DNA of 64,000 nt. It comes from Eimeria praecox. Its lineage: Eukaryota. The translations under genes and the position numbers were made by a program. The notes below the pieces were generated by a model that worked only from the letters and a program-made list of their open reading frames with translations, was not told the origin of the DNA and made no database searches. The first letter of the stretch is position 1; every line of letters starts with the position of its first letter. Shown here one piece after another: positions 6,173 to 10,958 of this stretch. The stretch lies in the NCBI GenBank assembly GCA_963920595.1, contig OY986947.1, forward strand, positions 5,828,001 through 5,892,000. The letters run 5' to 3'.

Positions 6173-9100
6173 GGAAATTTTTAAGGAAAACTGGGTTTTG
6201 GAGGGGCAAGCTGCTTCCCCAGAAAATTATGTGTTAGGTATTCACTGAGGGAGCCCATACTCCTGCGGCACGCCCTTCTTTGTGAGAGCCAACCGCTTTC
6301 ACGCGTCTTAGAAAGTGCACATTATACGACCATGTAGGGTGTCCATATACTATATCATCAACATATCAAATCATGCAGATTTTGGAGCATTTCCACGAGA
6401 TCGCCCGCCACTCCGAGGTTTTCTGTCTCCTCTATCGGCTACATGAAACCCCCAGATTTTTTGGCTAAGACGAATACAGTCGGCACTAATTTCACGTTGC
6501 ACAATCCATGCTGAACGTTCTGAGATTCCAAGTCTCTGCGTGAGTACCGTCCTGTTTTCTCGTGCAATGCAGCCAAGGGATCCATATACTAGTGCCTGTA
6601 CTGTTACCCGATATCCTCGCGCTTCGTAATGCTTTTTGAGGCTTTGATATTTCTCTTCTTTTTGTAGACGGGCTGCTCCGAGAGAATTCTTCTTGTAGTC
6701 CTCAAAGACGACCGCCACATCTACTATTGCCAAGTCTTTGCGCTTGTCATCTCGAAGAATAATATCAGGCCTTAACAGGGTTTCCATATCCTCAGGGCAG
6801 GCGTCGATTTGGAGCTTCTTGCCCCTATTCTTCGCGCTGCTCTTGATAGCTGTTGCAATCCTCTCCAACGCCTTGTTATGTCGGTCTTTGATCTTGCTAT
6901 CCATATGATGAGGGCAGTGGTTGAGGACATGCGCTAGGGTTTCCGGGTCCTCTGTACAGTGGCGACATCGCGATACCTTTGAGACCTTAATCTTCTTCAG
7001 GTATGCTCGTGTGGGGAGTTGTGCAGATCGTGCTCTTAAGGCGAAGATCACCTCGTCCGGCTTCAGACGAGTGGGACCTCTCAAGAAAGCATTACTATCT
7101 GCTGTCTGATAGGCCACTGACTTCCCTTGATCTACCTTTTCCTTCCACACGTCCCGTTGGCACTCCGCCATATGCTGTTTGATACTTTTAATGATATGCT
7201 TCTGATCCAATTCGGAGCCATCTGTTCGCTGAACAACATAGCTCTCGTTGCTTCCAGTCTCGATGCGCGTCTTGCTCATCGATAAGCTTCCTGGAAGCTC
7301 TGTCCATAAGCTTCGAACGTCCACCCTTTTGCCTCTCCTCTTCAGGCAGCCCAAGTCACGCCCGTTGAGATAGGCAATAATCGCTTCCCGGTCGCTCTTG
7401 TCACTCTCACGTGTATAGATGAAAGCCTTTTTGATGACTTCCAATAGCTGGCCTTCTGCAACCGCTCGAATCACGCTGTCTGAACTGTTGAGCATTTGTA
7501 CAGCATGACCTATCTGCGTTGCAGTTGCGATCGTGATGAGAGAAGTACACCCAAGACCACCATGTGAGGTGGGCTGATGAAACATCTCAACGACGGTGCT
7601 CTTTGAAAGCTTGAAGGTAGCCTTTAGAGCAGAGCGTATATGACGATCGAAGGCAATCAGCTGCTGTCTATAAGGGTAACAATGCCTGAGATGATAGTCA
7701 AGACGAGACATCACAAAAGTGCGAATCGCATCTAGTTTCTGCCAGGGAAGGAGTGCTGACCTCAGGAGCTTGGTAATGTCCTTCTTCGCCTTGCTCATGA
7801 CTCGAAGGATTTGATTTTGATGCACTGACGATTCCAGCGCATCCTTGACGCCCAGGTACTTGTACGCCTCCCCTAGTTTGACCACCGGCAAGACCTCGTT
7901 GTGGAGCTTCAGCTGCACCGGATCGGGTTGTTGTCGCTTTTCTCCTCGCTTCCATCCCAAAGTAGCACATTTGGACGGGTTGGCCTCTAATCCTGTCCAC
8001 TGGAGGAAGTCCACCACCACTTGATGAAGTGTAGAAATTCCTGCTCGAGTACTAGCAACCGTCTTGAGGTCGTCTGCATACGCCATGTGAGAGACCTTCA
8101 CAGGCGGTCTCCCGTCTGTCGTACGCAGTTCGAGGCCTGCATCACAAGCTGCTAATCTCTGCAGGAGAGGCTCAATGGCTAGGTTGAAGAGGATCGGGCT
8201 GAGAGGACACCCTTGCTTCACTCCTCGTCGGTTCTCAATTCGACCTGTGCAGCCCTCCTTTGTCACTACGCAGAAGCTCGCTCCTTGATAGAGATCCATG
8301 ATGATCTCACGAACGTGCTTCGGTAGCCGTTGAGCCTTCAAGACAACGTGTATGAGCTCGTGGGGAACGGATCCAAATGCATTTTTCAAGTCGTAGTACG
8401 TCATGTACAGCGGTTTCGAGCCTCTGCGCGTGGAGTTGAGGATGCTTTGGGCAAGAAACAGGTGCTCATGGCACCCATTCACTGGCATGAATCCCTTCTG
8501 CGACTTGGAGGCAACCCCGGACTGTGATGCCCAGTCCGTAATCCTGCTGGCCCACAGTGCTGCATAAAGTTTGTAGATACAGTCCTGTAGATTGATGGGT
8601 CGCCAACTCTTCACATCGTTAGGATCGCCCTGCTTGGGAATCAAAACGGTCACGCTTTCCTTCCACTTCTCTGGAATACGTCGATGCCGAGAGCACGCGT
8701 TGTATATCGCGGTCATGGCTGGAACAAGCACCTCTTCAAACCTCTTGTACACAAAAAACCCTATCCCATCTGGCCCTGCTGCAGACTTAAGGTTGCTCTT
8801 TAGCAGCTGAGCACGCACATCCTCTTCTGTGAAGTATAGATCAATCGCACACGCTCCACTAGGAGCTGAAGCCAAAGGGTCTAAGAACTCATGAGCAACA
8901 TCAGAAGTGGAGTCGATTATTTGCTCAGAGTGCTGATCTCTAAAGTGTGCCTCCAGCTCACTGAGTTGGATGGGACAATCTTGGCTTCTAGGTTGATCTT
9001 CGTCAGCTAGTAGTTGCTCCACACACTTCTTTCTGTCTTTCATGTAGAGTGCTTGGAGATTTTGTGCTGACTCTTCTTTGAGGATCATGATGAGGCGACG

Positions 9101-10958: not shown

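What the first reader, a model, noticed from the sequence alone, without database searches (positions are those of the whole stretch)
6173..10958. Intact 28S-targeting non-LTR retrotransposon inserted ANTISENSE beside the R2 site in an apicomplexan-like rDNA array
Seen: a 4.8-kb single-ORF element (Zn finger, RT with YADD, CCHC, PD-D endonuclease) on the minus strand inside a plus-strand 28S gene. Its 3' end is fused at GACGT^, 8 bp upstream of the classical R2 position TTAAGG^TAGCC, and empty sites are visible in units 2 and 4. Established: R2 inserts in the same orientation as the rRNA and is co-transcribed with it. Apicomplexan genomes are regarded as very poor in transposons; the best-known Eimeria exceptions are LTR/chromovirus-like elements. 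From memory, the antisense 28S precedent is planarian R5, at a different site. Inference: this is a distinct, possibly undescribed rDNA-specific family with its own cleavage polarity, and a candidate site-specific gene-insertion tool.
Basis: partly seen in the sequence, partly recalled or inferred. Interest (0 to 1): 0.95.

Follow-up and report, generated by a model that had tools for sequence, protein, structure and literature searches.

The report
Backwards rDNA retrotransposon in Eimeria
One full-length and one shortened copy of a jumping gene sit backwards at exactly the same base of the 28S ribosomal RNA gene, eight bases from the classic R2 site, in what is likely an Eimeria parasite; it is probably a recently active relative of the U2-targeting Utopia elements that has switched to a ribosomal target.

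Summary
Confirmed and extended. A 4,786-bp element (one 1,461-aa ORF: zinc finger, RT, CCHC, PD-D-K nuclease) lies antisense in 28S at GACGT^TCTTAAGG, 8 bp before the R2 site. That points to two separate insertions. It is not R2: opposite polarity, no Myb found. Its nearest named relatives are Eimeria 'hypothetical' proteins (six species), then oomycete Utopia-type proteins (38%). Likely mechanism: target-primed reverse transcription from a nick on the rRNA-sense strand. Limits on novelty: planarian LIN9/24/26 already insert antisense in 28S at other sites, and 17 Eimeria 'LINE R2' hits are in print, with no target in the text searched. Strict specificity is not shown: 6 of 19 Eimeria fragments lie on 55-225-kb scaffolds, and one outside contig has a non-rDNA 3' flank. 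The host target differs from the eukaryotic consensus at four bases beside the nick. Two unchecked scan notes report similar antisense elements in other genomes. Repbase and Dfam were not searchable. New variant; interest 0.68.

The parts
3807..6172 (+). 28S rRNA gene of unit 1, part before the insertion; ends ...ACTATGACGT (helix 69), the inferred primer 3' end
   Evidence: Rfam RF02543; identical to unit 2 over 6,172 bp; breakpoint
6173..10958 (-). Copy 1: full-ORF RLE non-LTR retrotransposon, 4,786 bp, antisense to rRNA; replaces 2 bp (TC) of target
6173..6370 (-). 3' UTR (198 nt), no poly(A) tail, ends ...CCTTAAAAATTTCC; no folding signal (z 0.34)
6371..10756 (-). Single ORF, 1,461 aa plus stop; residues 262-1461 modelled at pLDDT 87 with an R2-like fold
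6647..6772 (-). Restriction-like endonuclease catalytic motifs (RPD...D...KEEKY, residues 1329-1370)
   Evidence: motif scan; aligns with R2Tg KPD..VD..K..KY
6914..6967 (-). CCHC zinc knuckle (residues 1264-1281)
7955..8641 (-). Reverse transcriptase core (Pfam RVT_1, residues 706-934), YADD at 8069-8080
9866..9943 (-). Single N-terminal zinc finger (residues 272-297), followed by about 95 disordered residues, no Myb domain found
   Evidence: conserved in all 8 full-length relatives scanned; Pfam zf-C2H2 only E 0.36; model
10757..10958 (-). 5' UTR (202 nt), structured (z -4.6); 10919-10927 is complementary to 9 nt of the adjoining antisense 28S flank
   Evidence: no Rfam family, no HDV-like descriptor hit
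10959..12062 (+). 28S rRNA gene of unit 1, part after the insertion, starts TAAGGTAGCC (holds the R2 site)
44481..45968 (-). Copy 2: 5'-truncated copy (ORF residues 1032-1461 plus 3' UTR) in unit 3; same 3' junction, 10-bp target deletion, 2-bp GC microhomology at the 5' junction
27940..27970 (+). Empty target site, unit 2 (junction 27955^27956; R2 site 27963^27964); helix 69 carries two compensatory base-pair swaps
62942..62972 (+). Empty target site, unit 4 (junction 62957^62958)

Best explanation
It is a single-ORF non-LTR retrotransposon with a restriction-like endonuclease, present twice in antisense orientation at one base of 28S rDNA, and likely a recently active, Utopia-related Eimeria family that targets this site by target-primed reverse transcription. 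Inferred steps: the protein nicks the rRNA-sense strand at GACGT^TCTTAAGG (R2 nicks the other strand, 8 bp on); that 3' end primes cDNA on the element's 3' UTR; the other strand is cut or resected 2-10 bp further into the target, so bases are lost rather than duplicated; early cDNA ends join by microhomology and give 5'-truncated copies. Being antisense, it cannot ride on the normal Pol I transcript; it most likely uses its own 5'-UTR promoter, or else antisense read-through (untested). The preference for this site is probably strong but not absolute.
For: Shown: intact catalytic motifs here and in 8 of 8 full-length relatives scanned; R2-like fold, best match R2Tg E 4e-46; two copies with one 3' junction and two different 5' junctions. 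The copies differ at 11 places in 1.49 kb while the upstream rDNA of unit 1 is identical to that of unit 2; all 4 coding differences are synonymous (about 0.013 if neutral, from a 0.34 synonymous share of transitions), so copy 2 is not simply a decayed copy 1. Copy 2's allele at 6788 is the only one seen in run X2. The element is covered in runs of three studies (X2 30, X5 28, X3 27 of 30 bins; X6 only 2); 13 of 17 listed ORF variants that I classified are synonymous. One X3 contig runs 35 letters past its aligned start at 6179, as expected of a unitig ending about 30 bases inside a branching flank (inference; the letters are not shown). Kinship: Eimeria clade 100% SH-aLRT, joined at 99% with oomycete RT-RLE proteins, gregarine proteins and unnamed ones; oomycete hits score up to 545 bits against 226 for R2Tg and 106 for R2Bm (different query spans). 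A 24-member cluster of a sister element has 5 of 15 listed members on contigs of 4,872-4,874 bp, as if bounded by a collapsed repeat (inference). Target deletion on insertion is described for oomycete Utopia and R2.
Against: Only two junction pairs are seen, both in one assembly; no flank DNA of any relative could be read, and no raw read across a junction was seen. Six of 19 Eimeria-named fragments lie on five scaffolds of 55-225 kb, which may be dispersed copies outside rDNA. In run X2 one contig joins the element 7 bases short of its 3' end to 231 letters that match nothing tested in the window. The trees are quick trees without bootstrap and hold no verified R2, R4, R5/LIN, NeSL-1, CRE or HERO sequence; the oomycete rows are called Utopia by inference (oomycete, RNase H before RT), not from seen U2 flanks. 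No promoter, transcript or ribozyme was shown.
Confidence: 0.78

Rival explanations
1. A weakly specific, dispersed Utopia-like family that landed in rDNA once by chance; copy 2 arose from that insertion by deletion and was spread by unequal crossover.
For: Fragments on 55-225-kb scaffolds; one non-rDNA 3' flank; reptile and ant Utopia are known to be loosely targeted; copy 2's junction microhomology fits a repair deletion too.
Against: 4 of 4 coding differences between the copies are synonymous, and one of copy 2's alleles is fixed in another run; neutral decay in place would not give this. The rDNA around copy 1 is identical to an empty unit.
Confidence: 0.12
2. A member of a wider, older antisense-28S lineage (planarian R5/LIN-type, or the elements of two earlier scan notes) rather than an independent retargeting from a U2-specific ancestor.
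For: LIN9/24/26_SM are NeSL-clade and antisense in 28S; LIN26's 3' flank starts ACGTCG, ours ACGTCA; unchecked notes e1-7591230 and e1-7631552 describe antisense NeSL/Utopia-like elements beside the R2 site in other genomes.
Against: Sites differ by -79 and +539 bp; the nearest named non-Eimeria proteins are from oomycetes and gregarines, and no flatworm name is among the named hits listed. No R5/LIN sequence was available, so the test is indirect.
Confidence: 0.06
3. A true R2 that changed polarity, or an R2 insertion later inverted in place.
For: Site is 8 bp from the R2 site; best solved-structure matches are R2 proteins; MGEScan labelled Eimeria elements 'LINE R2'.
Against: No Myb by Pfam (control P0077 detected) and a disordered stretch after the zinc finger; far higher scores to oomycete proteins; no Utopia/NeSL structure appeared among the PDB hits, so R2 wins by default; two copies share the antisense junction with clean flanks.
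Confidence: 0.02
4. Assembly artefact joining an unrelated retroelement to rDNA.
For: No raw read across a junction was seen; rDNA arrays are hard to assemble.
Against: Two copies with distinct alleles and distinct 5' junctions, base-exact 3' junctions in the known insertion hot spot, target deletions typical of this class; element present in three outside studies.
Confidence: 0.02

Closest known systems
Utopia (NeSL clade; U2 snRNA-specific RLE non-LTR retrotransposons, oomycete families Utopia-1 to -5_PI; PMC4640811)
   Same: One ORF with 1-3 N-terminal zinc fingers, RT, CCHC, RLE; precise 3' and variable 5' junctions with target deletion; nearest named non-Eimeria proteins (38% identity, 99% SH-aLRT group).
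   Different: Flanked by antisense 28S, not U2 (TCTGTTCTAATCAG); lacks the RNase H of oomycete Utopia; Apicomplexa are not in the paper's host table.
R2 (R2Bm, R2Tg, R2 of Platysternon)
   Same: RT-CCHC-RLE fold; same 28S helix 69/70 region; short target deletion at the 5' junction.
   Different: Opposite orientation and inferred nicked strand; site 8 bp upstream; no Myb found; no HDV-like ribozyme found; cannot be co-transcribed with pre-rRNA; non-animal host.
Planarian R5/LIN lineage (LIN9_SM, LIN24_SM, LIN26_SM; R5 of Girardia, whose site is recalled, not seen)
   Same: NeSL-clade RLE elements inserted antisense in 28S.
   Different: Other sites (+539 and -79 bp); T-rich tails versus none here; flatworm hosts; sequence kinship not testable here.
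Eimeria 'LINE R2' MGEScan hits (17 elements; PMC9141347)
   Same: Same genus and probably the same family, since its fragments are in five of the nine Eimeria species of that study.
   Different: Automatic label only; the main text has no occurrence of '28S', 'target' or 'site-specific'; Table S6 is not held, so identity is not checked.

Membership tests
RLE-type non-LTR retrotransposon (R2 group) | Single ORF with RT, CCHC knuckle and PD-(D/E)xK endonuclease | tested here: met
RLE-type non-LTR retrotransposon (R2 group) | No LTRs, fixed 3' junction, variable 5' truncation | tested here: met
   self-BLAST and junctions of two copies
RLE-type non-LTR retrotransposon (R2 group) | Nicking and target-primed reverse transcription activity | not testable with these tools
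   inferred from motifs and junctions
R2 | Insertion at TTAAGG^TAGCC in the orientation of the rRNA | tested here: not met
   antisense, 8 bp upstream
R2 | Myb domain directly after zinc finger 1 | tested here: not met
   no Pfam Myb at E<=1 in the window protein or 5 Eimeria-clade relatives, control P0077 positive; pLDDT<50 for about 95 residues after the finger. Pfam may miss divergent Myb domains.
R2 | 5' HDV-like ribozyme cut out of the rRNA co-transcript | tested here: inconclusive
   no Rfam ribozyme at E<=10; 0 hits with my own descriptor, which had no positive control
R2 | RT phylogeny inside the R2 clade | tested here: inconclusive
   no verified R2 in the trees; bit scores 226 versus 545 speak against
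Utopia | Insertion after nucleotide 38 of U2 snRNA genes | tested here: not met
   both copies are in 28S; Rfam finds no U2 in the window; other loci of the genome not available
Utopia | RT phylogeny with Utopia families | tested here: met
   99% SH-aLRT group with oomycete RNase H-bearing RT-RLE proteins; quick trees, Utopia identity of those rows inferred
Utopia | 1-3 N-terminal zinc fingers, RT, zinc finger, RLE, no Myb | tested here: met
Oomycete Utopia | RNase H upstream of RT | tested here: not met
   no RNase H Pfam hit, while many oomycete hits carry PF13456/PF00075
R5/LIN (planarian) | Antisense insertion in 28S | tested here: met
R5/LIN (planarian) | Same site as LIN9 or LIN24/26 | tested here: not met
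   offsets +539 and -79 bp; R5's own site not seen
R5/LIN (planarian) | RT phylogeny inside R5/LIN | not testable with these tools
   no identified R5/LIN protein among the hits

The most novel reading that the evidence does not exclude
A Utopia-like lineage of the SAR supergroup has independently converged on the R2 hot spot from the opposite strand and is a strictly site-specific, currently active rDNA parasite across Eimeria: an rDNA-targeting non-LTR retrotransposon outside animals that finds its site without a Myb domain, reads the host's own variant of helix 69, and is expressed from antisense rDNA read-through processed at a new structured RNA formed between the 28S flank and its 5' UTR.
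Probability: 0.22. Interest if true: 0.87.

Novelty: new variant of a known kind. Interest (0 to 1): 0.68.

Why it matters
Apicomplexan genomes are described as nearly free of working transposons, and Eimeria retroelements as degenerate. Here is an open, selected, apparently recently mobile element with several full-ORF sister lineages. It gives a natural case of target switching from the Utopia lineage to 28S, which bears on the recent proposal that R2 arose from a Utopia-like ancestor, and it shows that the step need not involve a Myb domain or sense orientation. It makes testable how an rDNA element is transcribed against Pol I and how a single zinc finger plus RT/RLE surfaces set the site. 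For Eimeria work, occupied rDNA units can disturb 28S assays and 5'-truncation patterns could serve as strain markers. As an insertion tool it is a lead only: four bases beside the nick differ from the eukaryotic consensus, and specificity may be leaky.

Tried and rejected
No whole genome is held for the window, so copy number and off-target copies could not be counted. Searches for flanked relatives gave nothing useful: JGI metagenomes 7 distant RTs at 23-31% identity, viral contigs 0, prokaryote genomes 0. A single-sequence fold failed (pLDDT 37.7); the 59-sequence fold worked; the VIA second look could not be run. An AU test of apicomplexan monophyly (Eimeria clade, P0264, Lankesteria, Selenidium) was borderline (p 0.0535), so vertical descent versus transfer is open. 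The careful tree did not finish; P0200 was dropped for short overlap and L006 for a stop. No ribozyme by Rfam (only a chance mir-216 hit, E 5.5) or by descriptor. 3' UTR folding is unremarkable. Earlier scan notes by sequence and by place were empty. PMC11828913, PMC13708176 and PMC6562748 (passages) held nothing on this element. The three 183-aa ORFs in the spacer were rejected as open frames of tandem repeats.

Full report
1. Observation. The window is a tandem rDNA array with four + strand units, 18S starting at 1027, 22810, 39335 and 57812. Units 2 and 4 have the empty sequence GGACGTAACTATGACGT^TCTTAAGG^TAGCC; the first caret is this element's junction, the second the R2 position 8 bp on. 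Unit 1 carries 4,786 bp (6173-10958) on the minus strand, with a 1,461-aa ORF, a 202-nt 5' UTR and a 198-nt 3' UTR without a poly(A) tail; two target bases are lost and none duplicated. The rDNA upstream of the insertion is identical to unit 2 over 6,172 bp, so the host unit is not a decayed pseudogene.

2. A second copy. It has the same 3' junction, begins at ORF residue 1032, removes 10 target bases and joins through a 2-bp GC microhomology. It differs from copy 1 at 11 places: 7 in the 3' UTR and 4 in the ORF, all 4 synonymous. About 34% of possible transitions there are synonymous, giving roughly 0.013 for 4 of 4. The copies therefore diverged while the protein was under selection, which fits two retrotransposition events into one base better than one insertion and a later deletion. 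This is the main evidence for targeting, and it rests on two copies.

3. Protein. Pfam finds RVT_1 and zf-RVT. Zinc finger, YADD, CCHC and PD..D..K motifs are intact here and in 8 of 8 full-length relatives scanned. A model of residues 262-1461 from a 59-sequence alignment is confident (pLDDT 87.3, pTM 0.82) and matches R2Tg, R2 of Platysternon and R2Bm best (E 4e-46 to 1e-36, 19-23% identity). After the single zinc finger come about 95 disordered residues, then a helical bundle leading into RT. No Myb and no RNase H was found by Pfam, while a Myb-bearing control was detected.

4. Host and family. Of 120 shorter hits listed (145 found), 19 are Eimeria 'hypothetical' proteins from E. necatrix, mitis, maxima, praecox and brunetti; E. 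media adds a sixth species. The closest named one is E. praecox EPH_0055280, 93% over 265 aa, so the host is likely E. praecox or a near relative. No E. tenella, E. acervulina or Cyclospora name appeared in the lists shown. Full-length unnamed relatives are 65-81% identical over RT-RLE, one cluster has 24 members, and identity then drops to 38%. In two quick trees the Eimeria rows form a 100% clade inside a 99% group with oomycete RT-RLE proteins, Selenidium, Lankesteria and unnamed proteins. Many of the oomycete proteins carry RNase H before RT, the mark of oomycete Utopia, so I read them as Utopia; their U2 flanks were not seen. The trees lack bootstrap values and verified R2, R5/LIN, NeSL-1, HERO or CRE rows. 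Whether the lineage came down within Apicomplexa is open (AU p 0.0535).

5. Outside samples. Twenty of 24 listed runs, from 16 studies, hold part of the queried stretch, which included short rDNA flanks; 6 hold half of its words or more. Four were laid on the element: X2, X5 and X3 cover 30, 28 and 27 of 30 bins, X6 only 2. X2 holds both near-identical and 85-95% identical contigs, so several lineages coexist in one sample. Of the 40 differences shown (128 in all), I classified the 17 ORF variants outside one divergent X3 cluster of six: 13 are synonymous. One X3 contig extends 35 letters before its aligned start at 6179, the length expected if a unitig ends about 30 bases inside a branching flank; the letters are not shown, so this is only compatible with an rDNA junction. 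Against strict targeting: one X2 contig joins the element 7 bases short of its 3' end to 231 letters with no match to the motifs I tested in the window, and 6 of the 19 named fragments lie on five scaffolds of 55-225 kb.

6. Mechanism. From established TPRT chemistry, an element lying antisense must have been primed by a 3' end on the rRNA-sense strand, so the first nick is inferred at GACGT^TC, on the strand opposite to R2's. Loss of 2 and 10 bases at the 5' junctions implies a second cut or resection further into the target, as described for oomycete Utopia and for R2 with microhomology priming. R2 is cut out of the rRNA co-transcript by an HDV-like ribozyme; this element cannot be. No ribozyme was found. 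The 5' UTR is structured (z -4.6); in the long hairpin a diverged X2 contig shows one two-sided change, two tolerated one-sided changes and two broken pairs, weak support. A 9-nt stretch of the UTR is complementary to the adjoining antisense 28S flank (22 of 5,000 shuffles, noticed after the fact), which leaves antisense read-through as a real alternative to an internal promoter. I rate own promoter 0.6, read-through 0.4; neither is tested. The host's helix 69 has two swapped base pairs against the Rfam eukaryotic consensus (GGGAGU/ACUCUC becomes GGACGU/ACGUUC), and two of the four changed bases flank the nick on its 5' side. Whether the protein reads them is unknown.

7. Comparison with what is known. 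It works like R2 but fails R2's site, polarity and Myb tests. It has Utopia's build and kinship but fails Utopia's U2 target. Antisense 28S insertion is known for planarian LIN9, LIN24 and LIN26_SM, at +539 and -79 bp; R5's antisense site is recalled, not seen. A 2022 survey reports 17 Eimeria elements labelled 'LINE R2' by MGEScan and its main text names no target; Tables S5 and S6 are not in the held archive and may bear on this. Ten literature searches found no description of this site, this polarity at the R2 hot spot, or an rDNA-specific element in Apicomplexa; the library lacks most subscription papers, and Repbase, Dfam and the Fell et al. 2025 inventory could not be searched. What I saw of each paper: PMC4640811 main text parts 1-3 of 5, S6 Fig parts 1-2 of 3, S1 Fig part 1 of 8, no figure images; PMC9141347 passages and supplement part 1 of 5; passages only of PMC13188248, PMC5035012, PMC13580325, PMC13586686, PMC3774820, PMC7564333, PMC11828913, PMC13708176 and PMC6562748. 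Two unchecked notes of this scan describe dead antisense NeSL/Utopia-like elements at or beside the R2 site in other genomes, one replacing 28 bases; I could not test them, and they did not come up by sequence.

8. Verdict. The feature is real and better supported than first reported. It is best filed as a new Utopia-related family with a new target and polarity: a new variant of a known kind. The strongest open points are genome-wide specificity and the route of transcription. Interest 0.68; 0.87 if it proves strictly specific, genus-wide and expressed by antisense read-through (probability about 0.22).

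Noticed in passing
window 12430-15475 and the matching spacers of units 2 and 3: The 85-98-bp spacer subrepeat holds ACCTTAAGAA, the reverse complement of 10 bases spanning the insertion site (57 copies in the window; 2 of 5,000 shuffles reach 10, noticed after the fact), and 11 bases before it ATGACGT, the 7 bases left of the junction. 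No insertion is seen in these repeats.
   Followed up: partly
window 27940-27957 (all four units): 28S helix 69 has two compensatory base-pair swaps against the Rfam eukaryotic consensus, in one of the most conserved parts of the ribosome, right at the junction.
   Followed up: partly
window 10919-10927 and 10978-10986: 9-bp inverted match between the element's 5' UTR and the 28S flank; an antisense read-through RNA would fold back here.
   Followed up: partly
window 10947 (run X2 loose end): A contig matches the 5' UTR up to 10947 and goes on with letters that repeat an 11-base motif of the UTR (10858-10868), hinting at a longer or tandem 5' end in a sister lineage.
   Followed up: no
window 8735 (run X2 loose end): One contig joins the middle of the element to 28S-like letters from about 440 bp past the target; a chimera or a rearranged copy.
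   Followed up: no
window 10775-10910, minus strand: The 5' UTR has a splice-donor-like AG^GTAATT and, further on, a pyrimidine run ending TAG (motifs judged by eye from recalled consensus).
   Followed up: no
window 22810-39334 versus other units: Unit 2 is 16,525 bp against about 16,990 bp for units 1 and 3 without their inserts; the difference appears to lie in the spacer subrepeats.
   Followed up: no
P0271, P0102, P0264: Related RT-RLE proteins in the gregarines Lankesteria metandrocarpae and Selenidium pygospionis, and an unnamed protein that is sister to the Eimeria clade (98%); their targets are unknown.
   Followed up: partly
window 22138-22208 and copies: (TA)35 microsatellite upstream of each 18S gene.
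   Followed up: no
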